Assembly: GCA_000165345.1 (NCBI GenBank)
Contig: CM000432.1
Span: 576,001 to 640,000 of the forward strand
Direction: 5' to 3'
Length of the DNA: 64,000 nt
This document shows positions 24,339 through 63,300 of this stretch, one piece after another. The position numbers and the translations under genes are program-made. Each line of letters opens with the position of its first letter. Position 1 is the stretch's first letter. Below the pieces are notes generated by a model. That model searched no databases. It was not told where the DNA came from and saw only the letters and a program-made list of their open reading frames with translations.

Positions 24339-25376
24339 CTACTTTTTAGAATATCCGTTCGGATTGTTAAATTGCCAATCATAAGCAGACTTACACGCAT
24401 CAAAAATACTGTGTTTCGCCTTCCACCCTAGCTCCTTCTCTGCTTTTGATGGATCAGCAATTACACTTGCCAAATCTCCAGGACGCCTATTTATTATTTC
24501 ATAAGGAATTTGTTTCCCGCTAGCATTTTCAAAATTTTTAACCATTTCTAGTACGGAAATCCCGCTTCCACAACCCAAATTATAAATATCTAGAGTTTTG
24601 TCCGTGTTACTTAAATTCAATAATTTTTCGAGAGCCTTGACATGTCCATTTGCTAGATCAGTTACATGGATATAGTCTCTTACTCCTGTTCCATCCCGAG
24701 TTGGCCAGTCATTGCCGAAAACGAACAATTTCTCTTTTCTTCCAATTGATACAAGTTGTATATATGGAAGTAGGTTATTCGGCTCTTCTGGGTCTTCACC
24801 TATTAAGGAAGACGGATGGCAGCCAACGGGATTGAAGTACCTTAGTATTGAAAATTTTGTATTTTTGGATGCATTGTAAATATCTTTCATCATAAGTTCT
24901 ATCATGAACTTTGTTTGGCCATATGGGTTTGATGCCCCTAATGGGTCAGTTTCCAAAAGAGGCGTAGATTTTGGTAAATAAACTGTTGCACTTGAGGAAA
25001 ATACTAAAATATTGCAATTAGCTTCTTTCATCACCTCTAGTAATCTAATAGTTCCAACAACATTATTTTCGTAGTATTCTAATGGTTGGGAAACTGAAAC
25101 TCCAACAGCCTTAAGTCCTGCAAAGTGAATCACAGCATTGTACCTCTCTTTCAAAAACAAATCTAACATCCTTTCTTTATCTCTAATATCAATTTCAAAG
25201 AAAGGAACCTTAACTTTGGTGATTTTTTCAATCCTGTTTACAACTTCGGGGTCTGAATTTGAAAAATTATCTAGTATATGAACAGAATAACCCTCTTCAA
25301 TAAGAGCTATTACGGTATGACTACCTATGTAGCCGGCTCCACCTGTACATAAAATTTTTATCTCGCTTTTACTCAT
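24339..25376 (-). CDS. GALE: UDP-glucose 4-epimerase (GalE, SDR family)
   Basis: Rossmann motif ILCTGGAGYIGSH, catalytic YxxxK (YGQTK) and full-length collinearity with GalE (345 aa). ATG at 25374-25376. Confidence 0.9.
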   Translation of the reverse strand: MSKSEIKILCTGGAGYIGSHTVIALIEEGYSVHILDNFSNSDPEVVNRIEKITKVKVPFFEIDIRDKERMLDLFLKERYNAVIHFAGLKAVGVSVSQPLEYYENNVVGTIRLLEVMKEANCNILVFSSSATVYLPKSTPLLETDPLGASNPYGQTKFMIELMMKDIYNASKNTKFSILRYFNPVGCHPSSLIGEDPEEPNNLLPYIQLVSIGRKEKLFVFGNDWPTRDGTGVRDYIHVTDLANGHVKALEKLLNLSNTDKTLDIYNLGCGSGISVLEMVKNFENASGKQIPYEIINRRPGDLASVIADPSKAEKELGWKAKHSIFDACKSAYDWQFNNPNGYSKK

Positions 25377-25655: not shown

Positions 25656-26339
25656 ATGATTAATAAGGAGAAAAGAATTGATCAGGAAAGGATATTTTTA
25701 GATAGCTTTGACTATTCAGAGCTAGAAAAAGCCGACCCAACACTATCAGGCGGTTTTAATGTTGTATATAGAAGAACTTGCCCTGTTGAAATTAGATTAA
25801 TAGATTCAGACGATGTGGAAGAAATTGGAACAACAGAGAATATTAATTTTAGGGTAATGATAAAAGGAGCGAAGTCGCTCCCTGACACTATAAGATTTGA
25901 AATAACATGCGATAATGATCTTTTTCTTTTTTACACACGCGATTTTTCAGCCTCAGATTTTAACGAGCTGAAGGTTGTGCAAAATCTTGTCTGTGATTAT
26001 AGCGACTTCACAGAAACATTTTGCAGAATAGTAAATAATACTATCCAAGATCAATTGGGATGTTTTGCAAAGTTTTGCCTCAGAGTTGATGGAAGTGCAA
26101 AGTTAACTTTTATTCAAGTTATGGAATATAAATTTTTAGAACTGCTTTCCATTGACTTTCAGCAGACTCCAGAAGAAATAATAAGAAACTCGATTTCTTT
26201 TAGATACTCCTTTATGAAAAGTAAAGTTGCATTAATGGAAGGAAGGTTCTTAGAAATTTCAAATCTGTTAAGCATCAGAAATCCAAATTTATTACATTAT
26301 TTACAGAAAAATTCAAATTGTATTAGAAACAAGTATTAG
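25656..26339 (+). CDS. SAS-6 N-terminal head-domain protein without coiled-coil tail (SAS6-like, SAS6L)
   Basis: IRFEITCDNDLFLFYTRDFSASDFNELKVVQNLVCDYSDFTETFCRIV aligns with the human SAS-6 head ([46 protein letters not shown]). The ORF is 227 aa with a stop at 26339, and the next gene is on the opposite strand, so no long coiled coil is encoded. Confidence 0.65.
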   Translation: MINKEKRIDQERIFLDSFDYSELEKADPTLSGGFNVVYRRTCPVEIRLIDSDDVEEIGTTENINFRVMIKGAKSLPDTIRFEITCDNDLFLFYTRDFSASDFNELKVVQNLVCDYSDFTETFCRIVNNTIQDQLGCFAKFCLRVDGSAKLTFIQVMEYKFLELLSIDFQQTPEEIIRNSISFRYSFMKSKVALMEGRFLEISNLLSIRNPNLLHYLQKNSNCIRNKY

Positions 26340-26365: not shown

Positions 26366-27340
26366 CTATCTCCCCTTTTTGTATATTCCAGTATTTATAT
26401 CAATTATGTCTTTTTTAATACAGTCAACTACAGTTCTGTTTACTTCAAGAGATACATTACATGTTCTAGAGAGCAAATATTCAATTGAAAATTCAACAAA
26501 TGCACTGCTGGTTCCTATAGAATTTAGAAATACATTTAGATTCTCATCGCCTTGCAATCTTAAATTTGAAAATGAATCCAAAAAATCAAAATTGAAGTCT
26601 TCCTCTGGCTCTTTAGTTTCAAAGAGTTTTTCATCTAAAATTTCTTCAAACATTAGTGGAATACCTTTATTATTAATGGCGCTATCGTGTATTTTGGATC
26701 TAACTTGCGAATAGACTTCTTGTAGACTTTTTTCTTGAAAATCGTTGGAAAAAATGTGTTTAAAGTCATGCTCAACTAGTAAATATATTTCTCTCCTACT
26801 CAAATCATTTATAATAAATTCAGAAGCCTCATCAACAGCATAATACTTAACATAACTCAATAGTTTATTATAGTATAAATTTGCTCGTTTAATCCTTTCT
26901 CTGCCCATATCTCGAGCAGATTCAATCCGCTCAAATAAATCTTTGGAAGTTAGTTTTTTCTCTTGAATTTCCAATTTTTCTTCTGATTTTTTTCGTCTAA
27001 AAAAATTTTTATTTGGTCTGGAATAATTAAATATACGCTTTAAATTAATAATTTCTCCGCCTTCAAATTCATTTTTCATCGAGCGTAATTGAAGCCTGTT
27101 ACTTAAGTGAGCAATATTTATATGAGAATCTTTGTCATCATTTATGTCGGAATTTTCAAATACGAATTTTTCATTGACTTTTTTAGTTGATGAAGTACAA
27201 TTAATACTATTCCGTTTATTATTTAACTGATCAGATTTACTTAGTATCTTACCCCTAAATATTTTAATCATATCATTAAAATTTTTCCTTTGGTTACTTT
27301 TAAATATGTATGCATCATTATTCTCGAGTGACTCTGACAT
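26366..27340 (-). CDS. hypothetical basic/acidic low-complexity protein (324 aa)
   Basis: ATG at 27338-27340 and a long stop-free ORF. Lys/Arg-rich N-half and an acidic C-half. No family recognised. Confidence 0.45.
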   Translation of the reverse strand: MSESLENNDAYIFKSNQRKNFNDMIKIFRGKILSKSDQLNNKRNSINCTSSTKKVNEKFVFENSDINDDKDSHINIAHLSNRLQLRSMKNEFEGGEIINLKRIFNYSRPNKNFFRRKKSEEKLEIQEKKLTSKDLFERIESARDMGRERIKRANLYYNKLLSYVKYYAVDEASEFIINDLSRREIYLLVEHDFKHIFSNDFQEKSLQEVYSQVRSKIHDSAINNKGIPLMFEEILDEKLFETKEPEEDFNFDFLDSFSNLRLQGDENLNVFLNSIGTSSAFVEFSIEYLLSRTCNVSLEVNRTVVDCIKKDIIDINTGIYKKGR

Positions 27341-27717: not shown

Positions 27718-28963
27718 ATGACAATGGTGCAGCCCAAAAAGAAATTTAGAAAAATCAAATTACAAGATGAAAATTATGTTTGGAAAAGAGGATCTATTGA
27801 AAGGAATATTGATGATAGTTTAAATTCTGGTAAATTATTTACTTTTGATACTAAGATACTTTTTAATTCACGAAGTAACTTGGATCGTAAGAAAAAAAAC
27901 TGTGATACTATTAAAAAAAGATGCAAGCTTAAGTATTTTAACAAGGATGGTGCTGATGCAAGTATGTCTAAGCGGCCTTTGAAGAAGGTTCGTAACCTCA
28001 ATCCAAATGAACTCGATATTTGGGGAAGCTCAGTTTCAACTTCGAAAAGTGTAAACAGTGGAATGAATTATCCAGGCGAACTTTTAAGGATCAAAGGTCC
28101 TTCTATTCAAATGCCTCATTCCGGTCAATCAATCAATCCATCAGAGCCTGATAGGCAAGATGCGTTACTTAGATCATCTTCCGTTTTAAACATAAACACT
28201 AATAGTAGAAATAATGCCTTTCCTGCTTCTTTAGTTAATTCATTTATTTCAAGTTACTATGAATCTGATGAAGTTATAAAACTAACAGAGCCACAAAAAT
28301 ATCACTTGGTAAATTCTTTGTTGAATGGTAAAGTTTTGGGTCTTGACTCTATTGGTGATTTAGAATTAGTCAGTGATACTAAAGATGAAATAGATAATAA
28401 TTCATATTCTCGTCAACAAAACAATGGGATTAGAAAAAAAAAATCTGAGATAAATAAAGAAATCCGAAGAAAAAAAGAACTTATGTTTAACAAGGAAAAG
28501 ACAAGAATCAAGAAACTAAACAAAGACGTTCAAAATATGGGTAAGTATAAATAATTTATTTTCTCAATTAATATGCTTTTTTTTAGATATGTTAATTCAA
28601 GATATCGACGAATTTAACTGTAATCTAGAGAACAGAAGGATTTATTTGACGATTCTAAAAGAGCAAATAGAATCTGCAAGAAGATTGGGAGTTTTGTCAA
28701 AGATTAAAATAGGAAGGAACGCCCATAAGGAAAATCCAATTGGAGCTTTGTCGGAAGTTGATATTCAATCAAGTAACGGGTCTTTAAGAAAGTTGCGCAT
28801 AGAAGATAAATCGTTTTCTAGAGATATTGTTTCTAATATTTATAGGAGGGGCTTAATAGAGATTCCACCTGCCAACGATGCTTTCTATGGCAGAAGATTA
28901 CAAAAACTCCTCAGGAGGAAAAGAAGGTCGAAAAAAATTGCTAAAAAGGTTCGGTTTTTTTAA
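27718..28963 (+). CDS. Nop53/GLTSCR2-family ribosome biogenesis protein; two exons (27718..28540 and 28587..28963)
   Basis: Track ORFs 27718..28554 and 28589..28963 join in frame through a 46-nt intron (GTAAGT at 28541...ttttttttag ending 28586; phase 1 giving ...VQNM-D-MLIQ...). N-terminal KKKFRKIKLQDENYVWKRGSIERNIDDSLNSGKLFTFDT resembles the Nop53 N-terminus (RKGKKAWRKNIDLSDVE...ALFHVD). C-terminal SLRKLR...RRG...KRR basic tail resembles Nop53 (SDSLRKLKPEGN...). Confidence 0.55.
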
Positions 28964-32295: not shown

Positions 32296-32424
32296 TTTGA
32301 TTTAAAATATTTCAAATTTGACAAACAAAATAAACGCGCGATTGTGTGTTGATTATTTTTTTAGCATTTTAAAAAATAATAAATAAATAAAATACGTAAA
32401 TTAATGTGAACAGTTGTGTCTAGT

Positions 32425-35400
32425 ATGAATAATAATGAATTGGTGGATATCATTGATACATTCATTAGCGTGGAGGAGTTAAATAGAAATTTAGATGAGT
32501 TTATCGACTCTCATAGTGAATGTATCGGTACCCTACGTAAATATTTACTTGATAGTATTCGCGAGTTTATATTCGGGGAAAGTAGCACGAATACGCGATT
32601 AAAAACTATTAAAGGCATTAACTCATCCTTAAAAGGCTTATGCTGTAACTTTGGGCATCTTGTTTTTCCCTCGAATGGCCTTATTCAATTTTTTTACAGG
32701 CTTTTAAGTAAAATTTTTACTAAAAATTTTTTTTTCTTACCCTACTTAAATGTAAATGAAGAAAGTGAAGTTTTTTTTCAGAGATCAAATGACAATGAAA
32801 TGATTTATTGTTGTGTCTCATCTCTTCTGACCATTTTGAAGATATTGTCGAATGGAAACAAATATTTATATATGGTATTTGCCAACGAAACCATAATGAA
32901 TGTAAATAAACTAAACTCAGCTTTGAAATATAAGAAATTTTCAAAAAACTGTTGTGATCATTCACAAAGCATTGATATTTACTTTTCATTTCTTCAAGCT
33001 ATTAAGTTAAATTCTAAGCATATAAGTGTAGCAGAATCTCCTGTTTGTGTTGACTTGCCAAAGGAAAATAATTGGTTTATTTATTTAATGGGACATATAA
33101 CAATACAACTGCTTTTAAATCAAATTATTTGTTTCGAAGATTCATCCATTAGAGACAGATTAATTATTGCTTGGCTCAGGGTACTAAATTCATGCATTGA
33201 AACTAGACAACTAGAATTTATTGGAATGATATTATACATCCTGAAGAACATTACATTTGATTTTAAAAAAGAAATAAGTTATCCAAATATTTTCTATTTG
33301 ATAAAAAATAATACTGTTGAATTTCTTTATAACGAAGATGTAGTAAATCAGTTCACAAATATTTTACCATGCTATATTGCACACTGCGTACATAATACTT
33401 CCACTATAGTTCTGTTTGGAGAATTTACAATTTGGTACTTAAATGGGTTTTTGAGGGCATGCTTATTTAGAAAATTAAATTATAATATACAAAATTCAAA
33501 TACTTATATTTCTCAAATTGAATTAATTTTAAAATTTTGGTTCAAACGATTCAGATTGACCTCAAATAACTTTTTTGATGAATACTCTTCAAAGTTAATA
33601 TTTGAAATATTAAATAAAATACCTTTTATTTCAGAAAACATGTCTATAATGATAGGGGGAAGTATTATGAGTGCAATGATCCACAAGAATAACAGCGATA
33701 AGGTCTCTTACATAAATATTAGGATGTTTTCATTATTAATTAAATTAAAGTCACTCAGCTTTTTCCCTATTGACGAAGCAAATTTTGATGAGCTTACGAA
33801 AAATATTATAAAACCTTCAATCTGTGGAATAAATGAATTGTATTCTAAAAAATATGATTCTTTACTAATTACAACACATATTCAAATGGTTATTTCGAGA
33901 TATTTTAATTCAGCTCTCGGAAATTTAAAAGACCAATTACCATTATGTTATTCTATATCCATGACAATTGAACTTATTCGATTAATGGTAGAACAAGATA
34001 TTGGCTGCACTTTTGAATTCGGGAAGTATATTATGAACCACCTTTGTAGAACAATAGCATCCAATGAAGATAAGATTTCGGATTGGGGATTAGCCCAATG
34101 TATTTTACTTACGGAACTTTCTATTCGTATTTTATCAAAATCTAAGAAAACACTGGAAGGGATTTTAGAGCCATTAATTGATCTAATTGACAGTGCAAGT
34201 ATATTCTTTATAATTATTTCAAATTGTATTATTAATTTTATTTTAATTAATTGTATAAATTCATTTGAAATAAAAAAGAGTTTGGTTAATAAAATTTTAA
34301 TGAAGCTTAATAGTTTTAATATTTCATGCACTCTTTCGAAAATGGTTCAAATTAAATTAATAAAACTACTTTCAATTATAGTTTTGAAAAATAGCGAAGT
34401 TGAAAATCTTAATATTATAACTGATTTGCAAATACTTTTAAATAGTATACGAATAAGCAACGAGAATTGCTTTCCTTTTGGAAGCTCATTTAATTCCATT
34501 TCATATTTTGATTTATTTCAAGAAAATAGCTATTGTGAAAGTAAGTTACTTTCTTTTCTACCAACAATACCAATTTGTCCCTTTTGCAAACAAGAAAATG
34601 GATTTGTACCTTCTAAAGAATTATTTATTTGTAATGGTTGTTGGAGGGTAATACCTACTTCTATTGATATTGATGATTCAGTTATTGTTCCAGAAATTAA
34701 GAACTATTTTTCTACAATAGATATTTTACTAAATTTTAACAAAAAGCAAGTCTTTAAAATTGATACAATTGATTTATTATTTGATTCAATAAATAGGATT
34801 CAAACGAATACTCAAGACAAGCATAACCAAAGTTTTTTTGCTATATTATCAATTTTATTCAGCTTCATACAAAATAAATCAGTTGATGAAATTAATAATA
34901 TGACAGCTTATTTACAAAGCAGTATTTTTGGAAAAGATTACTTGAATTATTCTCAATTCCAACTCAATTTACTAATGCTATCAGGAGAATTCTTGCGGAA
35001 CCATCTTATGTGCTACTCAAGAAATAATTTACTTACTAGTGAATTGATTTTTCCTACCCCACTAGTGATATCTAAAATTGTTAGTGAGTTAATAGATCCT
35101 GAAACTTTTTTTTTCACAAATGTTGAAGACATATTGAGAATATCACTTTTTTTTGGGCCTGAAATAAAAGATTTTCAGAAAACTTTAGATCAATTGGAAT
35201 CAATTAAACACGCATTTTTTGGCGATGTTTTTAAAATTAATGAACTGGTTAATTATTTCTCTAAAAAAAAAATGAATAGTACTGAATTATATTTTACACT
35301 TGGTATTTGTAAAAAACTTAATAAATTACTCAATTGTAAATATACAGATTTACATTTGACTGAAAATTCTCAAATATTGTTAAGTATTGCCTCTATGGAA

Positions 35401-38400
35401 GTTAAAGTTCAAAATATTATGCTAATTACAACTGCATTTACCGATGAATCATTCAGCAATTTTTTCTCTTCAGCGCTGGCAGCTCTGAGACTTGCAGTAA
35501 TTGGATTAGAAAATAATTGGAAGATATTATGGCGTAGAAATAGCCTTAGTGAATTTTCAAAAGGAATAATACCTGAGAAAATAGTGAGAAATGAATCAAC
35601 CTATGTTTTCAAGTATAACTCAAAGGTAATATACAATACATTATCTGTAATTTGTTCCGTATTAATGAGGCAGAATACCACACTATCTAGTATTTCATTA
35701 TCTCCTGGAACAAATAAATTAACATCAATACAATTGTCATCTTTTTTTAATTCCAAAAATAAGCATCCTAATTGGTTAATTTCACTACTTGGCCCTACTT
35801 TTGTATATCTCACACCTAATTTATTTTATAAGTCTTTTTTTGGCAATAAAAATAATTTTTCTAATACAATTTTTTTATATTTAAAAAAATATGTTCCAAG
35901 TTCACTTTCATTTGATAAATTAATAATCCAAATACCATTTTTTCTGATAAATAATATGAATGATGATGATTTAGATATTGAAACATACATTGATTTTCTT
36001 AAAAATAATATTTATAGCAGCTTATTACATAATACAACTCCAGATGATTTTCAATTACCAAAAGCATTAGTAAATACATCTATTGCATCTCTTTTTTGGA
36101 ATATTACCAGTTCTGAAAATATTATAAAATTTTTGGGTCACGAAGATGACGATAAGTTTTTTAGCAATTTTCTTGATAATTTGACTTTAGAGTGTCTAAT
36201 GTATAATTGTTCTGAAAACCATATTTTCTCCAAACAGTGTGATTGGCTAAAGAAGAAAATTAATATTCTAATTTGTGAATCCGACCTCAATACAATACAT
36301 CTGCCTAGAAAAAAGAAACAAAAGGTTCTAAACGAAATTAAACAGTCTATTGAGATACCACAATTAATAGAAAATTATATTGGCGAAAATTTAATGTGGT
36401 TATTAGAATTTTATAGCAAAAGTTTCTTAATAGGGGAATCTACTGGAATACGGAATAATTCACAACTAAAACATATATTTTTTCCAATATCTTTTATTAT
36501 CTCAGAACCACCACCTTCAAATAGAGCATCTATGTATTGGTATAGAGTTTTTAGGTCCCTTTCACTTTTATTATACTTTTCAAGGAAGTATATTAAAGAA
36601 TACGCAACAAGACTATTCGAACTTTTAATGAAAGCTACAAATAAATCAAACATGCACCCTTCTTGTATTCAATGCTGGAACATTTTTACCTTGCAATTAA
36701 TTGAAGATTTTCGAGAGAACAAAGATATTAACCAAAATATTTTTTTGCATTTATTATCCCCTATTATGGAACAATTATTCATTATCATTGAACCATTTAC
36801 TTTAAATAAATCTTCATTTCTTATTCATCTAGAGAATTTTTTAAAATTTATTATATCTTCAGTTTTGAGCATAAATAAGAGCTATTTTGCACTAATTCCA
36901 ATTATTAAAAGTTCAGAAAGTAATTCTATCAGGAAGATTATTCTCAATTGTTACTATGGCGATCATTTTTTGGATACATGCACAGAAAATGTAGAATATG
37001 AGTATTGCAGACTTGTTTTCCATCTACTAAATGAAAGAATAGATTTTTCATTAAAGTTTTTTTCGACTCATGCTCCCTATATTACATATGAAAAATTGCT
37101 TGGATCTATTAAAGATGTAATTTTACTCTCTCCGATTGATGCATATTGGACTTTATTTGGGAATAATGAAGAGTGTATTTCAATTAAACGTTTAAATGTG
37201 CTATACAATAAATGTTTAAATATTATTTCAAATACGAGTAACGACTCATTAATTCTATTTCAAAAATCAAATATAGAAACTCATCTAATTGATCAGCAAA
37301 ATGAAAAACTTACATCTAGAATGAATATTTTAAATACCGGACTTAAATATAATCGCTTACTACCCAAAACTTACTCACAAAAAAAATTTATTAACTTAGA
37401 AAAAAGTACTTCAAATTTAAAAAATTCAATTTCAGTAATAATTGGTACAATTGGGGCAATTGACTATAACTTTAATGGCTACTTAGAACCGAACATAGCT
37501 CACTTACACGACTATACTGACAATTTAAAGCACCATACTTTCAAACAAATAGACTCAACTGAATTTCAGTCAAATAATGCTTCAATGTTCATAAAAAATC
37601 TTGATGTTTTGACAGTAGACTTGATTCAAAATCACTTATTAGCATATTCACACTGGAATGTAGCAGCATTTGCAATTCAAGAAGCTCTAAAGTTCATTGG
37701 CTGCCACAATAGCTTATCTAATCTTGAAATGAATGAAAGAGTATGGAATCTGTTTCACCCGGAAGTTAAAGATATTTTGCAGCCATATAAATTAACAGAG
37801 TATAGAATTATTCAGGGTACAAATGAGCATTTACTTGATCAATTAAAGTTTTTAAGTGATGAACGAACAGAAAATGTCTATGAATTTTATTTTTGGTGTT
37901 TAGATTTAATAAACAATGAAATCAATAAAATCAATGAATTTGAAAAACCAAGTAAAATCCCAGTAAATATTAAAAATATTAATATTTTGTTCGAAGGATG
38001 TAGAGTTGTTTCACTTGGGATTCCATCCGTTTTCAATTTTATACTTCCTTTATCAATTGAATTTATTCTCCTATTTTGTGACCATTCTGTAATAAGAAAT
38101 TTGAAAGAAAAATTATGTTCGTTAATTATTTCTGGGCTCGAATGTGGCGTAAGCGATAGACTAAATAATTTTTCGATGTTAGACTCTCGAAAGGATAATA
38201 GAATTAAATCTTCATCTTTAATAATTCACCACGTTACATATGAATCAATATTTATTGTAATAACGCATTTAATGGAAATTTTCGAGAATATTATTCAGTG
38301 TAAAGTACCACAAATCCTACCTTGGTTTAATGAATCATTGCTTGAGCCTTTTTTACAAGAATTGTACCTTAATGAAATTAATCAATTTGATAATTCAATT

Positions 38401-41400
38401 AATGAAAAAAATATTAATCAAACTGAAGAAGGAAAGATAGTAAGTCCAAGTAACGTTACATTATCATTATTAGCAGAAGCAACAAAGATGAAAAGTTCCA
38501 AAGCTACAATTGATTTATTTTCTGATAAGAGTTGTCAGTCTAATCCTCAGTACTTTGAAAATGAAATAATAAGCTATATTTTCAATTTGAAACAAGAGAA
38601 TGGTAAAAACGAAGAAATCAAATCAATAGAAAATAAAAAAAAATTACCTAATGAAATCAAATTCCTCTCAACACTCTCAAACTTTCCAGTAATAAAAACT
38701 ATTGCTAACTTGCAGTTTATTACCGATCTCCCAATTAGTATATTGATACAAGCTGCATTGTCATGTGGCTCATACACACGTGCACTACTACTTTTTGAAA
38801 GATTTTTATTAGTTAAATATACAAATGAAGATTTTCCGAAAAGAAAACAAAGAAAATTTAATAAGTTAAGGACTTCACTAATGACACAATTTGGACTAGC
38901 ATCAAAATATTCTGGAAATGCAATAGACTATTTTAGAACTAATGGCTTTAATAATATAGATTTTGATCCACTTAATCCACTAAAATTTTACAAGACTTGT
39001 TACAGAACATACACTGAATTACCAAATATATTCGAAGAAGATAAAAAAAAAACAATTAACCATATATTATATTTGCCTTTTCAATGTTATTTGGGAATTA
39101 AAGATACAGATAACTTACTAGGTATAATGACTATATATGAACAAATGTCAACATTTGCGCAGGGAACATTTGATAAGCAGCTTATTGAGTCTTTATTGAG
39201 AGAGGATTATTACGGTGCTGCAACAATATATGAAAGAATCATTTCAAATAATTCAGAAATAAACCACTTAATATTTAGAAACTATTTAAGGTGCCTTCTT
39301 AAAGCAGGGTTTCCTCATATTGTATTGACTACATTATTGAATGCAAATAAAATAGTTGGGTTCAAAACAGAACTCGAAAATCTATCGCAAAATTTTAAAG
39401 AGAACAATTTCTCTAATCAATTAAATTATATCAACAGTAACTTATTCATCTCTGAAGCATTAGAAGCCTGCTATCAATTAGGAAATTGGGAGTTTCTAGA
39501 AATTATAATTTCTGATAATAAAAATAATGTAGAACAAAAAATTCAGTCAAATTTAATTAATAATATTTATATGGACCTTTTTATACCTTCAAATATTGAT
39601 ACAATAATGCAAAGATTCGATATTTATAGAGGAAAACTGTTATTACACCTTCATTTCGCAAAATCTAATATCGCTCAAAAAGATAATAAATTTAATGAAT
39701 CTTTTATTAACACACTAGAAAAAGCAAGAAGCCTTTTGTTAACCCCTTTAAGCATTAAATGGAATGACTCACATACAAGATCAAGCACAATACTGGAAAA
39801 GTTACATATACTTATGGATATTGAATTTGTATATTATTTTTTTATTAGATTAAAGAATAAACAAATGATTAATAACCCCTTGATCAAGAAATTTGATTTT
39901 ATTGAAAAACAAAACAAATTAGAATGGATTAAGGTTAGTGAACTTTTCGTTCTACGAGTTGATAATGCCAAAATTAACTCTGAAAAAAAGTACTCATTAC
40001 TTTCTCAAGCCAAAATTACATTAGAAGTTGCAGGCTTTGAATTATCTTCTTTTCTTTTGTTACTTGTATTGGAAAGAAGCAAAATTTCAATTTTAAATTC
40101 AAATTCTTCTCAGTCATATATAAATTTTTTAAATTCATTTGAAATGATTGGGATGCAAAATCACTCACTAGATCAGGACTTTCACTTATTAAACAATAAT
40201 GTTTCTGCTTTTGGGATTGCTGATTCGAGTTTGATGGATTTACATTCAATGAATTATAATGGTAGAGAAAGGGTTCCTGGGCTTATTCAAATAGATAATT
40301 TAATTAGTATTTCTTATTTCGAAAAAATCTTAGGCAGAGATGTTAATTTTGAAAAAATCAACTGGTCAAGAACAGAGAAAGAATTACTTGACGAATGGGA
40401 GTTATATTGTAAAAATAAATACATAATTACTCTGAACCAAAACTTGCTAGTTACATATTTATTTAAGCTATTCCAAAGAAATCAGATTAAAGTTGCTATT
40501 CACTTTTATGAAATGATCACTAGTAATAGGTCAAACGATTTGTTAGATGATGTTACATTTTCAGAAATCAACCTTGTGTACTTGGATTGGGCGATTAAAT
40601 CCTCTATGATTTCACCAGAAAATATTATCAATACATTCCGTGAAACTCTTGAAATACGATCAAATTGTGAAAAAACATATTTCCAGTTTGCAAATTATCT
40701 GGATAATTATTTTCATCTTATAGTTTCTAGTTCAGAAGCTGAAAACAATTTTCCTACAAGCTCAACTACATCAAAAAACAATTACAATCTTGGATCTATT
40801 TTTCAATGTGACGAAACCATTTTTTTGTGTATTAATATGTATTTAAGTTGTCTGAAGTGTGGTAATTCATTTATTTATCCTTCCCTTTCTAGAGTTTTAT
40901 TTTTAATATTTAACTATTCAAATATTATTTTGAAACATGGAATTGTACAATCTTCAGGTAAATGCGAAAACGCAAAGATATTACCTGATACATTTTTTAG
41001 ATTAAAAAAAGAAATTCTGGAACTTCCTCCTTCTCTTTGGTATGTTGTTTTACCTCAATTATTAAGTAGGTGCCAACATCCTGGCCTTGGATCAATCATA
41101 ATACAACCGTTGATAGCAAAAATTCTCAGAAAGCTTCCACGTCAAGCAGCATGGAGTTTTGTTTCAATGTTAAAAAGTAATAGTTCTGAAAGAAAAGGCA
41201 CCGCAATTTCTATTCTAAAGATGTCAAAGGTTATAACCAATGAAGAAAACGATGAAGAATTTATTAATGAGACGGATTTTTCACTTATTTTAGATGAATA
41301 TATTCGCTTATTTGACAACTTGATGGTTTTGGCAATGGACTCCAGCTCAGGCAGCAATATTCAATTGCAATCAAAAGATCAAAGAGCATCTAATAGAGCT

Positions 41401-43814: not shown

Positions 43815-46800
43815 TTATTTATTCTCAATAGAATTCTGTGTTTTATTACAATTGTAACTTTTGTTTTTTAGTGATTCCAATATACAGTTTAGCTCAGATG
43901 CAACGTCAGGCATGGGAGATTCGATATAGTTATTAATAATACTAGACACGATTCCTGATATATCAGCTTCTGAAGAACCTTGCAATATCTTGCATAGATT
44001 ACTTTCCATTTCGCTTTGATTTAATTTTTTATAATATAGAATTGGATTCGAAATTAATTCATCATAAGTTGCAGTAATATGTGTACTTAGCACTACAAGC
44101 AGTAGATTCTTAATAGTCTCTGAAAAAAAAACAGAAGACGATCCTGTTGAATGTTTGATTAGCACATTTATTAAGTTCATAAGCACTGGAATCAATAGTA
44201 AAAATTTAGTACCCGAATTTTCACAATTACAAAAAGAACTGAATCTATCATTAATTTGGTGATCGCATGGAATATAAACTGGCACCAATAATAGATCTAT
44301 TCTAGCAAGAATAATTTTGGATACAATAGTAATAGATTGAACCTTTCGCTTATAAACAGTATCTTCCCCAAGAATATATTTGGCTGTTTTATTTTTAAAT
44401 TGCTGATCTAAAACTATTAATGTATTTTCGTTTGCTCGTCTTGTTTCAAGGTTGTAGGGGAATTCAAAATCAAATGTAATTAATGGAAGGAAACTTGTTT
44501 CAATTAAGTCTAACCAAATCCATGGATCGCTAACAAACCAAGAGCTAGATAAATGCTGAGAACCCAGTGTTTGTTGTATGCGATTTATTGTGTGATTTCT
44601 CACAATGTTTGGACCAAAAGATGCAGCTATACAAAGAGTATGTACAACTTGAGAAATAAGTGTTTTGCCTTCAAAGTTGGCAAATAAAGAATATAAGGAA
44701 AAAATTAGTGAAATTGCTTGCAAATTTGCATCATAGTTATATTCAATAGTCGCCTCGCTTTCTAATGGAGTAAAAATAACATTACCGTTAAAAGTAGTGG
44801 GAGTAAATATTGCAAATGTCACTAACGTTTGTATAATTAGTGAAGTATTATTATATAATAATGAAGAATATTTTGGGTTATACAGCCACATTCCAAGACA
44901 TTCAAGCGATGACAAGATCAGTATTTGAGGGTCAGAAAGCTTTCCTGGGTAAAACTCTGGAGAAACTTTTGAACAATTTTCGAGGGCAGAAACAGAAGGT
45001 ATGTAAACCATTCTTTGTAATATTCCAAGCATTAACAATACGCATCGTTCTGTGGGGAAATTTAAAAATATACTGGTGTTTTGTATAGTAACTTCAACTG
45101 AATCTATATCATTTCTGCTCTCGGGCCGCATGATTATTTGAAAAACTGCTATTATTCTTTCAGAATGTAGGCTAAAAATTATCGGATGTAATTGAAGAAG
45201 AGCCTCAAGTATTAGAATTATTTGTACCATTAACTCTGAATCATGACTTTCGCATAGCTTAACAAGTATTAATAGCGAATTTGTTATAATTCTTTCTGCA
45301 AACATAAACTCAGATCTAGAAAGAGAGCGAGGATTATCGTTATAATTTGAAGTCTCAATACTTTTCTTGTCTACTTGAAATTCATCAGTTAATTCTCTAT
45401 TTGCAGAGCAAAAAATGGAGTATCTCTTCAAATTTTCCAAAAAAAAGCTAAATACTTCAAGAGTTACGACATTTTCTTTGGTAAATTGGTTGTTTACTTC
45501 ATTTATTTTTGAGCCCATTTTTATTTCCATCTTTTTAGTAATTTGTAGTGACAAAAGTGACATGAGTATACTTAGAGAGCATAGAGGATCAGATATTTTC
45601 CTAAAATTCACAATTTTGTTCCTATCAATTACAAGCAAAGGACTCCAATCGGAATAAATTTCTCCTTCAGTAATTTTACTATTCGTAATATTGATTTGCG
45701 TCTGTGAATTAACAATCGCTGAAGAATCATCTGCTACTTCAGTATTAATTGAGTAATGCTTATCTGATAATGGAAAGCTGTTTATGAAACGTTTTAAAAT
45801 TTTAATTAGAGGATAATAGTCTGAATAACTCATATTTTCTAAATTTTCAATCAATATGTCGCATAAATTCATTAGTTTTGAAAATAAATGAAAGGCTATT
45901 TCCCATGAATTTCCAGAGATTGTAGGTAGTTTGTAATTTATCCAGGAAGATGAAACTTCGTTTATATGCATAGAATTGTCTATACCAGATAAATATTTTT
46001 CCCAATATTTTGAATTCTGTATAATTGCATATATTGAAAGTGATAAATAGGGGGAGCAGCCATTTAAGATCCAGGAGAGAATTATTTCAGATGGAGTATT
46101 AGAATTGTCCCTTGTATTCTTTATATCTTCTTCAGTAATTATCTGCATGATTGAATCAACAATATTCGGTGGTTCATGTAAAAATCTAGAGTTTTCTTCG
46201 TCATCTTCTTCAATTGATCTAAATAAAATATTTGTAATATCGCTTAGCCAATGATTATTATTTGATGATGTCGATTTGGTGAGTCTAAGTGGTAATATAT
46301 GCAATTTTTTATCTAAAATTAATGTTTGGCTTAATTCTAATTCCTTCATATTCTCAGAAGAATTGCTAGCTTTATTAATTACCTCTATTAAGGGTTCAAA
46401 GCCATGTGAAATTCCGAAAGTCTTAGTTCTCGGGAAAAAACAAAGCTTAGGATGTTGTACATTAGAATAGTTTGAAATTGGTCTCCCTTGATTATCAGTT
46501 AATTCTTCAGATTCGAATGTCTTATGTGGAGTAATTTTTATAGAGTTTAATAAAAATATAACTTCAATAATTGTTTCCCAAGGAGAGTCTTCTGTCCATT
46601 TGCTTAAAGTGAGTTTAGATATATGGATAAATATAGGCAGTGCCAATTGACATTTTGCAGATAAGTCTAGGTTTATATACTTTGAAAGGCGTTCGAGAAT
46701 TTTATTAATATGCCTAAATTTTGAAAAAAGATTGCAAAGATTTACAATTTGTAAAATTCCATGAATGCATCTGAATAAGGTTTGAATATCATTGGAGTTT

Positions 46801-57532: not shown

Positions 57533-60496
57533 ATGTACAAATCTGCGCATGAAGAATTTTTTGATTTTATATTAAAATCGCATGTAAGCGATCCAAAGCT
57601 AAATCTGAGCCATGAAACTAAATCCAATGAGTCACTTGAAAAAAAAAAGTTGTCTGGAACACCTACTCGAAACATAAAATCAGAATTGGATGAGAATGTA
57701 CATACGTCTAACAAATCAAGAAAAAAAAATCGAAAATTAAATATTGAAGATAATTCGATGCTTTTGACTGAACATCCAAAAACGACTAATGAGCTACTTA
57801 AGGAGTTAGCTCAGACAGTTAAGGAAGGACAGTCTTTACAAAAAGATGTAGAAGTATTGAAAAAAGTTGTGTTTAATCAAAATTCAAGATCTAACCAATT
57901 CTGTTTTGTCCCAAATGGCCTTGAAATTGTGGGATTTAATTCAACTGAACTTGATCAGCCAAAGGACAACTTAATTTCGAATAGCTATTTGGAAGAAAAA
58001 AATTTAGGCTTTTCTGGACAACTGGAATATTATGTCAACAATATTGAGTCTATTGATTACGGTCAAAAAAGTGGAATTCAACCTATATCCGTACCAATTC
58101 TACGTATGAATACTATTGATACCCGAAAAAATGTGCTCAATACTCATTCAGTTGCACAACATTTTAAATTTAATTTAATGAGGATTTTGAAAAGAATCAA
58201 ACAGACAGAAGAAGTTCAAGTATATATTAGAAGTTTATATCAACAACTTAAATCAGAAATGATTTGCCATATTGAAGAAGAGAAGGCTATTGTAGCTAAA
58301 TTGATAGATGAACTAAAATCAATACACAATGTAAATTTTAAGTACAAAAGTAGTTTAAGGGAGAAAGACACACTAATAGTTAAACTAAATGGTTCAATTG
58401 ACACATTAAATGTTGAAAATAAAGATTTGAGTGAAAAATATGATACTATTTTTAAAGAAAAGAGATTATTCGAAAAAGAAATGAGTACTCGTTTACATAA
58501 TTTAGAAAAAGAGAACAATGATCTTAAGTCCTTCGTAGAAAAAATCAAGGATGAACACGAACAAACAAAATCTGAACTAAAGAAAGCAAAAGAACAGTCG
58601 AGTGAATTTGACAAGTTTATGTCTCAGCTTAAGAGTATGGGGATAATTGAGAAGATTGACGGTTCAAAGTACCTAGTTAACAATGAAAACAGGACACTAA
58701 ACGATGAATTGAAATTTTTAAAAGATCTGCTAAAGGATAAAAGAGATAGAGAAGAGTTGCTACATAAGAATATTTCACAGTTATCTGATGAGAACAGTAA
58801 ATTAAATACAAATTATAAAGAAAATAAAACATGTTTAGATAAAAAAATTCGAGAAAATTGTATTTTACAGTCAATACTAGAAAACTATAAAGAAAGAATT
58901 GGAGAGCTTGAAGAAAAAAATTGTTCATTGCAATCTGAAATAAATAACTGGAAAATTAAGATTGAACTTGGGATTGAAGAAGAAAAAAAGACAAAGATTA
59001 AAATTTTAGAATTAGAATCGGAATTGCAGTCTTGTAAGCATGAATTGAATGCAAAGTCATTGGAATTTAATAATTCTTTAAGTAGACTCGGACAAGCATA
59101 TGTCGAACTGAATGAAACAAAGCAATCACTTAAAGATTCTAAATATGAATTGGAAAATTTTAGAGAAAAAATAAAGTCGATGAATAGAGAAAATAAGGAA
59201 TTAAATGACGCACTCTCAAGCCAATTTCATTTAAATAGAAAGAAAGAAATCGAAATAGAATCATTAAAAAAGGATTATGAAAAAATTACAAATAATTTAG
59301 AAAATGAAAAGTTATCTAATAATAATTTAAGGAACAAGATAACAGAACTTGAAATAAATTGTTCGAAAATAGAAAATGAAAGATTTGAGATTCATAAAGA
59401 ACTTAATAATAGATGCATTATTGAAATTGAAAAAAAAGAATCTTTGGAAAAGGTATCAAAGGAATACAGCGAGTTGAAGAAGGAATTAGTGCAGAAAGAT
59501 GTGCAAATAAACAAACTCAAGGATGAGTTAAAAGAGACAGTTAGCCGCTTTGAAAGTGAATCTTTAAATAAAATTAATTTATTAGAAAACCAGCTAAATG
59601 AAAAATATAAACGTGATATTCATGCAATTGAAGAATCAAAAAGAAATATTTGTATTGAAAATGAAAACTTGCTTGAAGAAATGATCCACCAAAAAAAGAT
59701 GATACAAGAACTAATTTATGAGAAAATATCGTTAAACAGTGAAGTTAATTCATTAAAAGAAGCTGCAGAGGTTAATAAAAAGCAATTTGAAAACTCAATC
59801 CAAATTCTCTCAAAGGAGCTGTCAGCGCTACAAGAATTGGGAAGCAGTAAAATTATTGATTATCATGAAGAGAGCAATGTTAGAAGTTTTATTAAACATA
59901 TTTTAAAACAGAATTCGGAAGTTGACTTACGAGATGCTGAAAATTGCATTAATCAAGTTGAGTTACACCAAATACAAAGTACAACTGCTCCACCAAGTAA
60001 TTATAGCGTATTAAAAACAGAGAATGATTATTTTAGTCTTGATCAAAATATATTTAATGACAAATTCTTAAATACTCCTATAATGGAATGCAGTGATTTT
60101 TTCCAAGTTGAAGCGTCCTTATCTGCTCAATGCGAAATGGCGTATATTGACATAATTTCACAAACTGAAAGATTTAAAGACCTTTCGAATAAACTCAAAA
60201 GCCTTGAGGAGATTTTGATTAGAAATGGTGAAAAGAGTATATCAGAAATAGTACTAACTCTTTTTTGTGACCTTGAAAATATGGGTATTTCGTCTAAAGA
60301 ACTACTTAAGATAGTGAATTCAGAAAACAAGTCCAAGATTGAAATAGACAATGAGCTTTCAAATAAAATAACAGAAATAAGCCGAGCCTGGGTTCTTGAA
60401 GCAGAAGCTTCTAAACAAATACTTGACAATGCTCATAAAATAAGAAATGCCGCAGCAAAAGAAAGAATGATGTGGATAGAAAAAAAATTTAAATAG
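57533..60496 (+). CDS. long coiled-coil protein (987 aa)
   Basis: ATG at 57533. Around 700 residues of heptad-like Glu/Lys/Leu/Asn-rich sequence (KELNDAL, LENEKLSNNNLRNKITELE...) and no motor or enzymatic motif. Confidence 0.6.
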   Translation: MYKSAHEEFFDFILKSHVSDPKLNLSHETKSNESLEKKKLSGTPTRNIKSELDENVHTSNKSRKKNRKLNIEDNSMLLTEHPKTTNELLKELAQTVKEGQSLQKDVEVLKKVVFNQNSRSNQFCFVPNGLEIVGFNSTELDQPKDNLISNSYLEEKNLGFSGQLEYYVNNIESIDYGQKSGIQPISVPILRMNTIDTRKNVLNTHSVAQHFKFNLMRILKRIKQTEEVQVYIRSLYQQLKSEMICHIEEEKAIVAKLIDELKSIHNVNFKYKSSLREKDTLIVKLNGSIDTLNVENKDLSEKYDTIFKEKRLFEKEMSTRLHNLEKENNDLKSFVEKIKDEHEQTKSELKKAKEQSSEFDKFMSQLKSMGIIEKIDGSKYLVNNENRTLNDELKFLKDLLKDKRDREELLHKNISQLSDENSKLNTNYKENKTCLDKKIRENCILQSILENYKERIGELEEKNCSLQSEINNWKIKIELGIEEEKKTKIKILELESELQSCKHELNAKSLEFNNSLSRLGQAYVELNETKQSLKDSKYELENFREKIKSMNRENKELNDALSSQFHLNRKKEIEIESLKKDYEKITNNLENEKLSNNNLRNKITELEINCSKIENERFEIHKELNNRCIIEIEKKESLEKVSKEYSELKKELVQKDVQINKLKDELKETVSRFESESLNKINLLENQLNEKYKRDIHAIEESKRNICIENENLLEEMIHQKKMIQELIYEKISLNSEVNSLKEAAEVNKKQFENSIQILSKELSALQELGSSKIIDYHEESNVRSFIKHILKQNSEVDLRDAENCINQVELHQIQSTTAPPSNYSVLKTENDYFSLDQNIFNDKFLNTPIMECSDFFQVEASLSAQCEMAYIDIISQTERFKDLSNKLKSLEEILIRNGEKSISEIVLTLFCDLENMGISSKELLKIVNSENKSKIEIDNELSNKITEISRAWVLEAEASKQILDNAHKIRNAAAKERMMWIEKKFK

Positions 60497-62796: not shown

Positions 62797-63099
62797 ATTT
62801 GTATAGTTAACTTTATCTATATTAGTCTAAATTGCATTGTATAAGATTGATATTTAACAATATCGATGGTTTGTATTATGTGTTATATTTATTGTGTTTT
62901 AGCGATACACATATATAAGAAATATAGTAGAATATAGCTGTAATTCCAGCAGATAGCCCATTTAATGATTTTTTTCTCGCAATGTGCAGTCTTTCTTTCA
63001 ACCATGTGGGGGAATCGTGGCATTTTCAGAATTACCTGCGCCAGAATTATTCAATTTAAATACTTTTTTGAAATTAACACTAAAATCTTTATTATTAAA

Positions 63100-63300
63100 A
63101 TGAGGGTATTAAGTGGAAATGCAATTAACCAAGAAGTATTGGAAACACTAGCTGATATATCAAGCTTATTGAATACAGGATTAGATAAGGAAACCATATT
63201 AATTTTAATTAAACTATTAGAATTGGGCGTACAACCAGAAACATTATCAGAATTAGTGATTGAAATTCGCAGAGAAATAGAAAGCTACCAAATTTATTAG
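63100..63300 (+). CDS. MZT1: MOZART1 (MZT1, gamma-tubulin complex small subunit), 66 aa
   Basis: [48 protein letters not shown] matches the MZT1 core (...[40 protein letters not shown]). The track ORF 62965..63300 adds 45 unconserved residues; the ATG at 63100 gives the canonical size. Confidence 0.6.
   Translation: [66 protein letters not shown]

What the first reader, a model, noticed from the sequence alone, without database searches (positions are those of the whole stretch)
25656..26339. SAS-6 head-domain-only protein (SAS6-like), plus MZT1 in the same window
The protein aligns with the SAS-6 N-terminal head domain but is only 227 aa, with no long coiled coil. That matches the SAS6L class, which I recall has been linked to apicomplexan apical (conoid) structures. 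MOZART1 (63100-63300) and a 987-aa coiled-coil protein (57533-60496) are also here. Together they point to non-canonical MTOC or apical-complex components worth characterising in an organism thought to lack canonical centrioles.
Basis: partly seen in the sequence, partly recalled or inferred. Interest (0 to 1): 0.55.

Follow-up and report, generated by a model that had tools for sequence, protein, structure and literature searches.

The report
Known SAS6-like conoid protein of Cryptosporidium
This gene is the Cryptosporidium parvum copy of SAS6L, a short relative of the centriole protein SAS-6 that in Toxoplasma forms linear arrays on the conoid fibres; the identification is correct but already published, so it is an ordinary, catalogued gene.

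Summary
Window 25656-26339 (+) is an intact 227-aa ORF carrying a full-length SAS-6_N head domain (Pfam E=7e-33). It has no long coiled coil. The window is Cryptosporidium parvum chromosome 4, and the protein is EAK87839.1 / QOY42178.1 (CPATCC_001791).

It belongs to SAS6L, not canonical SAS-6:
- A SAS6L profile built without Cryptosporidium sequences scores it 228 bits; a canonical SAS-6 head profile scores 38 bits.
- An NJ tree separates the two families in 100/100 bootstraps.
- The AlphaFold model (pLDDT 92) superposes on Toxoplasma SAS6L chains in the conoid-fibre cryo-EM structure 9Y9Z (TM 0.87-0.91, 1.8 A).

It is not strictly head-only. It keeps a ~36-residue stalk helix and a conserved terminal NPxLL helix. 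An aromatic residue (Tyr158) sits where SAS-6 has its head-to-head plug.

It is not new. De Leon 2013 reported SAS6L in Cryptosporidium. The supplement of Koreny 2021 contains this exact sequence as the reciprocal-best-hit orthologue of TgSAS6L. UniProt already names it by its domain.

MZT1 is real but lies 37 kb and about 13 genes away, and nothing links it to this gene. No one has yet localised the protein in Cryptosporidium.

The parts
25656..26339 (+). Complete single-exon CDS of C. parvum SAS6L (227 aa; EAK87839.1 / QOY42178.1, CPATCC_001791; probably cgd4_2630, inferred only from the neighbour's locus tag)
   Evidence: ORF; exact-sequence look-ups; identical to CryParIOWAATCC001590_rbh_TGME49_301420 in the Koreny 2021 supplement
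25734..25745 (+). Family-conserved N-terminal 'DPxL' motif (D27 and P28 conserved in at least 90% of 65 SAS6L sequences)
   Evidence: Alignment A1; D27, P28 and L30 invariant in 8 Cryptosporidium species
25764..26159 (+). SAS-6_N head domain (aa 37-168), including the PISA-like region around E82, D88 and L111
   Evidence: Pfam PF16531 E=7e-33; beta-rich fold with pLDDT above 95; Foldseek matches to SAS6L and SAS-6 heads
26121..26132 (+). Beta-hairpin tip M156-E157-Y158-K159. Y158 aligns with the head-to-head plug residue of SAS-6 (CrSAS-6 F145 / DrSAS-6 F131); K159 is conserved in both families
   Evidence: MAFFT column analysis: SAS6L has Y 26, F 9, H 7 of 43; canonical SAS-6 has F in 14 of 14; hairpin between strands 147-155 and 160-170
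26172..26279 (+). Stalk helix aa 173-208 (about 5 heptads, 8 of 11 a/d positions hydrophobic); inferred homodimerisation coiled coil, equivalent to the first heptads of the SAS-6 rod
   Evidence: AF2 model; heptad scan; superposes on TgSAS6L, and on CrSAS-6 3Q0X which includes the start of the coiled coil
26280..26333 (+). Terminal helix carrying the SAS6L-specific 'NP(S/N)LL..LQ' motif (R208, N209, P210 invariant in Cryptosporidium; P210 conserved in at least 90% of the family)
   Evidence: aligned to TgSAS6L 'KSPSLLLHLQK'
63100..63300 (+). MOZART1/MZT1 gene, mentioned in the finding. It is real, but no evidence links it to SAS6L. The mechanical ORF starts at 62965 (111 aa); Met46 at 63100 gives a typical 66-aa MZT1
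   Evidence: PF12554 E=1e-17, domain aa 56-102; PDB MZT1 E=1e-10; Met positions
57533..60496 (+). 987-aa E/K/L-rich coiled-coil-like protein, mentioned in the finding. Function unknown; not linked to SAS6L
   Evidence: Only a sub-threshold Pfam hit; no PDB relative; crude heptad fraction 0.42; sources name it 'coiled-coil protein' or 'interaptin'

Best explanation
This is the Cryptosporidium parvum orthologue of SAS6L, an ancient short paralogue of the centriole cartwheel protein SAS-6. Shown here: it has the SAS-6 head fold, a short stalk helix and a family-specific terminal helix, and it lacks the roughly 300-residue rod. It belongs to the SAS6L clade. Its predicted structure matches Toxoplasma SAS6L as seen in the conoid-fibre cryo-EM map. 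Inferred mechanism, by homology with TgSAS6L (PDB 9Y9Z): two chains pair through the short stalk helices. Dimers then join head-to-head, using the hairpin-tip aromatic residue (Tyr158) in place of the SAS-6 phenylalanine plug. Without long rods and with a different dimer geometry, the polymer is a straight filament rather than a nine-fold ring. These filaments would lie along, and between, the tubulin fibres of the short Cryptosporidium conoid in sporozoites and merozoites, stiffening and bridging them during invasion. The contribution is probably redundant and individually non-essential, as in Toxoplasma and Plasmodium.
For: Identity: Pfam SAS-6_N E=7e-33. Best PDB sequence hit is TgSAS6L 9Y9Z at E=1e-41 over aa 14-220, against 1e-10 for CrSAS-6. 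A SAS6L profile without Cryptosporidium sequences scores 227.6 bits against 37.8 bits for a canonical head profile. The A1 SAS6L profile hits 9Y9Z at 302 bits against 96 bits or less for any SAS-6. The NJ bipartition has 100/100 bootstrap support. All 150 best representatives out of 1.84 billion proteins are short, with a median of 221 aa. Structure: AF2 pLDDT 92.3, pTM 0.82. The top 7 Foldseek hits are TgSAS6L chains, TM 0.87/0.91 and rmsd 1.8 A over 214 columns. Interfaces: an aromatic residue at the plug position and a conserved Lys159; heptad pattern in helix 173-208. Conservation: eight Cryptosporidium orthologues of 227-232 aa were aligned, including C. muris at 48% identity, and 82 columns are invariant. 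Literature: TgSAS6L homodimers form three linear arrays per conoid fibre with SAS-6-like interfaces, single loss is mild, and loss is synthetic lethal with CF1 (PMC12819142). SAS6L marks the conoid body (PMC7951837). SAS6L forms an apical ring in Plasmodium ookinetes and sporozoites and its knockout is dispensable (PMC4919640). Over-expression gives filaments (PMC3697468). The exact sequence is listed as the reciprocal-best-hit orthologue of TgSAS6L.
Against: Nothing contradicts the identity. For the mechanism: no localisation, expression or knockout data for the Cryptosporidium protein were found. By BLAST at 1e-18, Zeng et al. find no C. parvum CF1, CF5, CIP3 or PRP, which are SAS6L's direct neighbours in Toxoplasma. 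However, the more sensitive survey by Koreny et al. lists C. parvum candidates for CF1, CIP3, DCX and CF4. The dimer and filament interfaces are inferred from alignment and a monomer model, not computed. SAS6L sits at the flagellar basal plate in trypanosomes, so its site is not fixed across eukaryotes.
Confidence: 0.85

Rival explanations
1. It is a canonical SAS-6 whose coiled-coil exons were missed, meaning a truncated gene model or a pseudogene remnant of a centriole gene.
For: It shares the head domain with SAS-6. Marques 2014 report a 'divergent SAS-6 orthologue' in C. parvum lacking the critical residues, without giving a gene identifier.
Against: The stop codon is followed 27 nt later by a convergent conserved gene, and the + strand downstream is closed in the frame read. 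Length and C-terminus are conserved in 8 Cryptosporidium species, and the C-terminal 50 residues align with TgSAS6L. Profile scores and the tree place it in SAS6L. The SAS-6 that PMC6401066 describes for Cryptosporidium has a large alpha2-beta5 loop, whereas this protein has a 4-residue loop, so that is most likely a separate gene.
Confidence: 0.02
2. It is a genuine SAS6L, but in Cryptosporidium it acts mainly somewhere other than the conoid. Candidate sites are the basal-body-like structure and perinuclear microtubule bundle of the aflagellate microgamete, or the acentriolar spindle pole. It would then be a relic of the flagellar or basal-plate role seen in trypanosomes.
For: T. brucei SAS6L localises to the axoneme basal plate. 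Cryptosporidium microgametes keep microtubule bundles and a basal-body-like structure. Several Toxoplasma conoid-fibre partners are weakly detectable or undetectable in C. parvum.
Against: In both apicomplexans tested (Toxoplasma and Plasmodium) SAS6L is apical, and it is absent from Plasmodium male gamete flagellum formation. Zeng et al. score SAS6L as present in Babesia and Theileria, which have no flagella and no detectable SAS-6. This ties its retention to the apical complex. Cryptosporidium has a conoid.
Confidence: 0.1
3. SAS6L, MZT1 and the 987-aa coiled-coil protein form a co-located functional set of MTOC or apical-complex genes.
For: All three lie within one 64-kb window.
Against: They are 31-37 kb apart with about 11-13 unrelated housekeeping genes between them. 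The organism is a eukaryote with monocistronic genes. MZT1 is a universal gamma-tubulin-complex subunit with no known tie to SAS6L. The coiled-coil protein has no detectable homology to any solved conoid or centrosome component.
Confidence: 0.03

Closest known systems
Toxoplasma gondii SAS6L (TGME49_301420; PDB 9Y9Z, conoid fibre 24-nm repeat)
   Same: About 36% identity over about 207-214 residues. The architecture is the same: head, short stalk helix and terminal NPxLL helix. Predicted structure TM 0.87-0.91. Shared MEYK hairpin tip and 'FIQxMEYKF' motif. Published as reciprocal best hit.
   Different: The Cryptosporidium protein is 36 residues shorter (227 against 263 aa), lacking the longer N- and C-terminal tails. 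Its conoid is shorter, and the partner PRP (and, by strict BLAST, CF1, CF5 and CIP3) is not clearly present. There are no experimental data for the Cryptosporidium protein.
Plasmodium berghei SAS6L (PBANKA_1414900)
   Same: Same family. It forms an apical ring in invasive stages, is individually dispensable, and comes from an organism with a reduced conoid.
   Different: It is expressed only in mosquito-stage zoites. Stage specificity in Cryptosporidium is unknown.
Canonical SAS-6 (CrSAS-6/Bld12p 3Q0X, DrSAS-6 2Y3W, HsSAS-6, CeSAS-6)
   Same: Homologous head domain (PF16531). An aromatic residue sits at the hairpin tip that plugs into the neighbouring head. The first heptads of the coiled coil are present.
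   Different: No ~300-residue rod, so no cartwheel spokes. It forms linear arrays rather than nine-fold rings in the solved homologue. It is a separate clade (38 against 228 bits; 100/100 bootstrap). It carries the SAS6L-specific DPxL and NPxLL motifs.
Trypanosoma brucei SAS6L
   Same: Same family and the same short architecture. It also forms filaments when over-expressed.
   Different: It localises to the flagellar basal plate. Cryptosporidium has no flagellum.

Membership tests
SAS6L (SAS-6-like) | Contains the SAS-6 N-terminal head domain (PF16531 / former Pfam-B_2528) | tested here: met
   E=7.1e-33, 114 bits, full profile coverage
SAS6L (SAS-6-like) | Little sequence outside the conserved ~200-aa domain and no long C-terminal coiled-coil tail | tested here: met
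   227 aa; stop at 26337-26339 with a convergent gene 27 nt away; downstream + strand closed in the frame read; only a 36-residue helix plus a 17-residue helix after the head; eight aligned Cryptosporidium orthologues of 227-232 aa
SAS6L (SAS-6-like) | Falls in the SAS6L clade, separate from SAS-6, in analysis of the conserved domain | tested here: met
   SAS6L HMM without Cryptosporidium 227.6 bits against canonical HMM 37.8 bits; NJ bipartition 100/100; A1 profile against PDB gives 302 bits for TgSAS6L and 96 bits or less for Cr, Dr, Hs, Leishmania and Ce SAS-6. Caveat: the canonical set used for the HMM and tree was Chlamydomonas-like only
SAS6L (SAS-6-like) | Reciprocal best hit with T. 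gondii SAS6L | tested here: met
   Forward direction: the best PDB hit by sequence and by fold is TgSAS6L. Reciprocal direction from the literature: the identical sequence is labelled rbh_TGME49_301420 in Koreny 2021 S5
SAS6L (SAS-6-like) | Family-specific motifs outside the SAS-6 core (N-terminal DPxL; FIQxMEYKF hairpin; C-terminal NPxLL helix) | tested here: met
   D27/P28, K159 and P210 are among the columns conserved in at least 90% of A1 and are present in the query; motifs visible
SAS6L (SAS-6-like) | Self-assembles into homodimers and linear filaments | not testable with these tools
   Only inferred, from the aromatic Y158 at the plug position, the heptad stalk, and homology to the arrays in 9Y9Z. 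No multimer prediction tool was available
SAS6L (SAS-6-like) | Localises to the conoid or apical complex in apicomplexan zoites | not testable with these tools
   No Cryptosporidium localisation found in the literature held
Canonical SAS-6 | Head domain followed by a ~300-aa coiled-coil rod that forms cartwheel spokes | tested here: not met
   The protein ends at residue 227 and there is no rod
Canonical SAS-6 | Groups with SAS-6 orthologues | tested here: not met
MOZART1 / MZT1 (ORF 62965/63100-63300) | PF12554 MOZART1 domain in a small protein | tested here: met
   E=1e-17, profile 1-47 of 47; PDB MZT1 chains E=1.4e-10

The most novel reading that the evidence does not exclude
In Cryptosporidium, which lacks centrioles, flagella and delta/epsilon-tubulin and has only a short conoid, SAS6L may have been kept for a role other than the Toxoplasma-type bridging complex. 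That complex's partners PRP and CF5 (and, by strict BLAST, CF1 and CIP3) are not clearly present. SAS6L might instead bind the tubulin lattice directly as a self-sufficient filament, or organise the basal-body-like structure and perinuclear microtubules of the aflagellate microgamete. This would make it a minimal system for studying how a SAS-6 head polymer reads a microtubule lattice.
Probability: 0.1. Interest if true: 0.45.

Novelty: already known. Interest (0 to 1): 0.15.

Why it matters
As a discovery it matters little. The family was defined in 2013, its presence in Cryptosporidium was stated then, this exact sequence was listed as the TgSAS6L orthologue in 2021, and an atomic structure of the Toxoplasma orthologue in situ appeared in 2025. 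The residual value is practical. First, the protein should be a good, small, probably non-essential marker for the Cryptosporidium conoid body in tagging and expansion-microscopy work, which nobody appears to have done. Second, several GenBank records misname its orthologues and could be corrected. Third, its retention alongside a reduced set of conoid-fibre proteins makes Cryptosporidium a natural reduced system for asking which SAS6L contacts are essential.

Tried and rejected
- The search for homologous proteins with the single protein timed out twice. The later profile run returned only 12 hits because of its word index. The exhaustive representative search was used for family breadth instead.
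- Single-sequence AlphaFold gave pLDDT 34 and was discarded.
- Full-text searches for cgd4_2610, cgd4_2630 and CPATCC_001791 found nothing. The gene identifier cgd4_2630 is therefore only inferred, from the neighbour's tag 4g2620 and the order of accession numbers.
- Hodges 2010, the centriole gene inventory, is not held.
- I considered whether the 'divergent C. parvum SAS-6 orthologue' of Marques 2014 is really this SAS6L. I rejected this as unlikely, because PMC6401066 describes a large alpha2-beta5 loop for the Cryptosporidium SAS-6 and this protein has none. I could not scan the C. parvum proteome to count SAS-6_N proteins, so the point is not settled.
- I considered the idea that SAS6L's Toxoplasma partners are missing in C. 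parvum. I down-weighted it because Koreny's more sensitive survey lists candidates for CF1, CIP3, DCX and CF4.
- The 987-aa coiled-coil protein was compared with all PDB chains, including the conoid structures. There was no hit.
- The canonical SAS-6 sequences retrieved were mostly short exon fragments from algae. Only 14 near-complete heads were used.

Full report
**What is there**

Window 25656-26339 (+) is an uninterrupted ORF, ATG to TAG, of 227 codons. It sits in a compact, roughly 30% GC, intron-poor region. A 279-bp AT-rich spacer separates it from a divergently transcribed UDP-glucose 4-epimerase-type gene (24339-25376, minus strand). Only 27 nt separate its stop from the stop of a convergent 324-aa gene (26366-27340, minus strand).

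Exact-sequence look-ups identify the window as Cryptosporidium parvum chromosome 4. The same protein is encoded on CP044419.1 of assembly GCA_015245375.1 and is deposited as EAK87839.1 / QOY42178.1 (CPATCC_001791). UniProt already calls it 'Spindle assembly abnormal protein 6 N-terminal domain-containing protein'. The neighbouring gene carries the tag 4g2620, so the CryptoDB identifier is probably cgd4_2630. This is inferred, not verified.

**Checking the observation**

- Pfam SAS-6_N (PF16531) matches residues 37-168 over the whole profile, with E=7e-33 and 114 bits against a cut-off of 25.
- Against all PDB chains, the best sequence match is a 263-aa 'SAS-6 N-terminal domain-containing protein' present as 41 chains in entry 9Y9Z. 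The match has E=1e-41 and covers residues 14-220.
- Chlamydomonas SAS-6 heads follow at about 1e-10, and vertebrate heads at 1e-5 to 6e-4.

**SAS6L or SAS-6?**

Five independent tests agree that it is SAS6L.

1. An exhaustive phmmer search of 1.84 billion representatives gave 651 hits. The best 150 are nearly all short (median 221 aa) and align across query residues ~12-220, beyond the Pfam head. The few long hits are fusions or tandem SAS6L copies, not rod-bearing SAS-6.
2. An HMM built from 63 SAS6L sequences, with all Cryptosporidium sequences excluded, scores the protein at 227.6 bits. An HMM of 14 canonical SAS-6 heads scores it at 37.8 bits.
3. The 65-sequence SAS6L profile hits TgSAS6L (9Y9Z) at 302 bits. 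It hits Chlamydomonas, zebrafish, human, Leishmania and C. elegans SAS-6 at 96, 71, 54, 47 and 35 bits respectively.
4. A neighbour-joining tree separates canonical SAS-6 from SAS6L (including this protein) in 100 of 100 bootstraps. The caveat is that the canonical set was Chlamydomonas-like only.
5. With the alignment as input, AlphaFold2 gives a confident model (pLDDT 92.3, pTM 0.82). Its seven best Foldseek matches in the PDB are all TgSAS6L chains of 9Y9Z, the best with TM 0.87/0.91 and rmsd 1.8 A over 214 columns. Canonical SAS-6 fragments follow with TM 0.5-0.67 normalised to the query.

**Gene-model completeness**

That can be excluded.

- There is no room before the convergent gene, and the + strand downstream is closed in the frame read.
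- The eight Cryptosporidium orthologues aligned (window protein plus chipmunk genotype I, C. ubiquitum, a Logan-derived sequence, C. felis, C. xiaoi, C. ryanae and C. muris at 48% identity) are 227-232 aa and end at the same place. C. hominis, C. meleagridis and C. tyzzeri copies of 227-228 aa share the 90% cluster.
- The last 50 residues align with the C-terminus of TgSAS6L.

**Anatomy**

- The model has a beta-rich head (strands between residues 34 and 170, helices 99-109 and 115-131).
- A 36-residue helix follows (173-208), then a 17-residue helix (210-226). 'Head-only' is thus a slight simplification.
- The long helix has a plausible heptad register, with 8 of 11 a/d positions hydrophobic. 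It superposes on the first heptads of the SAS-6 coiled coil in 3Q0X.
- Columns conserved across the family (at least 90% of 65 sequences) are D27, P28, E82, D88, L111, K159, R183 and P210.
- These columns define an N-terminal DPxL motif, the PISA-like core, an 'FIQxMEYKF' hairpin and a C-terminal 'NPxLL..LQ' motif. All are present here.
- In a joint alignment, the SAS-6 head-to-head plug residue (CrSAS-6 F145, equivalent to zebrafish F131) aligns with Tyr158. That position is Y, F or H in 42 of 43 SAS6L sequences, and the following Lys is shared by both families.

**How it most likely works**

The shown part is the fold, the family and the conserved interface residues. The rest is inferred from the Toxoplasma orthologue.

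- Zeng et al. 2025 (PMC12819142) resolved TgSAS6L in native conoid fibres. [quoted passage not shown] One array lies on protofilaments 2-3 together with CIP3 and PRP. Two more lie in a 'bridging complex' with CF1 and CF5 between neighbouring fibres.
- In that study, loss of SAS6L alone is mild, but it is synthetic lethal with loss of CF1 and synthetic defective with loss of CIP3.
- Earlier work showed filaments on over-expression (PMC3697468), a conoid-body location (PMC7951837), and an apical ring in Plasmodium ookinetes and sporozoites with a dispensable knockout (PMC4919640).

I therefore expect the Cryptosporidium protein to dimerise through helix 173-208 and polymerise head-to-head through the Tyr158 hairpin. 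It would decorate or bridge the fibres of the short Cryptosporidium conoid as a redundant mechanical brace.

The weakest link is the partner set.

- By BLAST at 1e-18, Zeng et al. find only SAS6L and CPH1 of their conoid-fibre proteins in C. parvum.
- The more sensitive survey by Koreny et al. lists C. parvum candidates for CF1, CIP3, DCX and CF4, but not for PRP.

**Comparison with what is known, and novelty**

- De Leon et al. 2013 defined SAS6L as a pre-LECA paralogue lacking the tail and stated that it occurs in Cryptosporidium.
- The supplementary FASTA of Koreny et al. 2021 contains 'CryParIOWAATCC001590_rbh_TGME49_301420', whose sequence is identical to this ORF over all 227 residues. 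It also holds the C. hominis, C. meleagridis, C. muris and chipmunk-genotype orthologues.
- Zeng et al. 2025 score SAS6L as conserved in C. parvum.

The finding is therefore correct but already known. What remains undone, as far as the held literature shows, is any experiment on the Cryptosporidium protein itself.

**The centriole context**

- Cryptosporidium lacks delta- and epsilon-tubulin. [quoted passage not shown]
- Marques et al. 2014 nevertheless report a divergent SAS-6 orthologue in C. parvum.
- PMC6401066 describes a large alpha2-beta5 loop for apicomplexan SAS-6, including Cryptosporidium. The present protein has a 4-residue loop there, so that is most likely a different gene. I could not scan the proteome to confirm it.
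- Zeng et al. score SAS6L as present in Babesia and Theileria, where Marques et al. found no SAS-6. This ties retention of SAS6L to the apical complex rather than to centrioles.

**The 'together' argument**

- MZT1 is real: PF12554 E=1e-17 and PDB MZT1 E=1e-10. The likely true start is Met46 at 63100.
- The 987-aa protein is E/K/L-rich with heptad-like stretches. It has no family hit above threshold and no PDB relative.
- Both lie 31-37 kb from SAS6L. About 11-13 unrelated genes sit between them, including two giant ORFs, a P-type ATPase, a flavodoxin/FAD reductase, and Brix and WD40 proteins.
- In a monocistronic eukaryotic genome, this co-residence carries no functional weight. MZT1 is a universal gamma-tubulin-complex subunit with no known link to SAS6L.

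**Verdict**

The core of the interpretation (SAS6L, a conoid-associated class) is supported. The MTOC-module inference and the implied novelty are not. Novelty: already known. Interest: low (0.15).

Noticed in passing
window 25656-26339 (orthologues P0005, P0176, P0002): Three GenBank orthologues of this SAS6L carry wrong product names. C. tyzzeri TRY52207.1 and the C. felis protein are named 'UDP-glucose 4-epimerase', and the Cryptosporidium sp. chipmunk genotype I protein is named 'alpha-mannosyl-glycoprotein beta-2-n'. The real epimerase is the adjacent gene (24339-25376, minus strand), so these look like off-by-one transfers of annotation.
   Followed up: partly
window 62965-63300 (+): MZT1 gene models disagree between species: 111 aa in C. 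parvum and C. tyzzeri, 98 aa in C. meleagridis, and a 35-aa fragment in C. hominis. The MOZART1 domain starts at residue 56, and Met46 (nt 63100) would give a typical 66-aa MZT1. The first 45 residues are hydrophobic and are probably not coding.
   Followed up: partly
window 27718-28963 (+); L001 5070-6309, L002 5063-6308: Two adjacent ORFs (278 aa and 124 aa) are called as two genes on the Logan contig, but as one 399-aa product in GCA_015245375.1. This suggests a short intron or a frameshift in the model. There is no Pfam hit.
   Followed up: no
window 26366-27340 (-): A 324-aa protein, seen only in Cryptosporidium records in the look-up made, lies convergent to SAS6L with only 27 nt between the two stop codons. 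It has no Pfam family (best hit E=0.068).
   Followed up: no
window 57533-60496 (+): The region encoding the 987-aa coiled-coil-like protein has a strong purine strand bias (GC skew 0.22 and AT skew 0.26 at 58-60 kb), reflecting its E/K-rich composition. Sources name it variously 'interaptin' or 'coiled-coil protein'. It has no homologue in any solved structure, including the Toxoplasma conoid entries.
   Followed up: partly
window 32416-42810 (+) and 43815-49217 (-): Two very large uninterrupted ORFs (3464 aa and 1800 aa) occupy a quarter of the window. They were not examined.
   Followed up: no
literature, not the window: Two published conservation tables disagree for C. parvum. Zeng 2025 (BLAST at 1e-18) scores CF1, CF4, DCX and CIP3 as absent. 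Koreny 2021 (reciprocal-best-hit pipeline) lists one candidate for each. This matters for any claim that Cryptosporidium SAS6L works without its Toxoplasma partners.
   Followed up: partly
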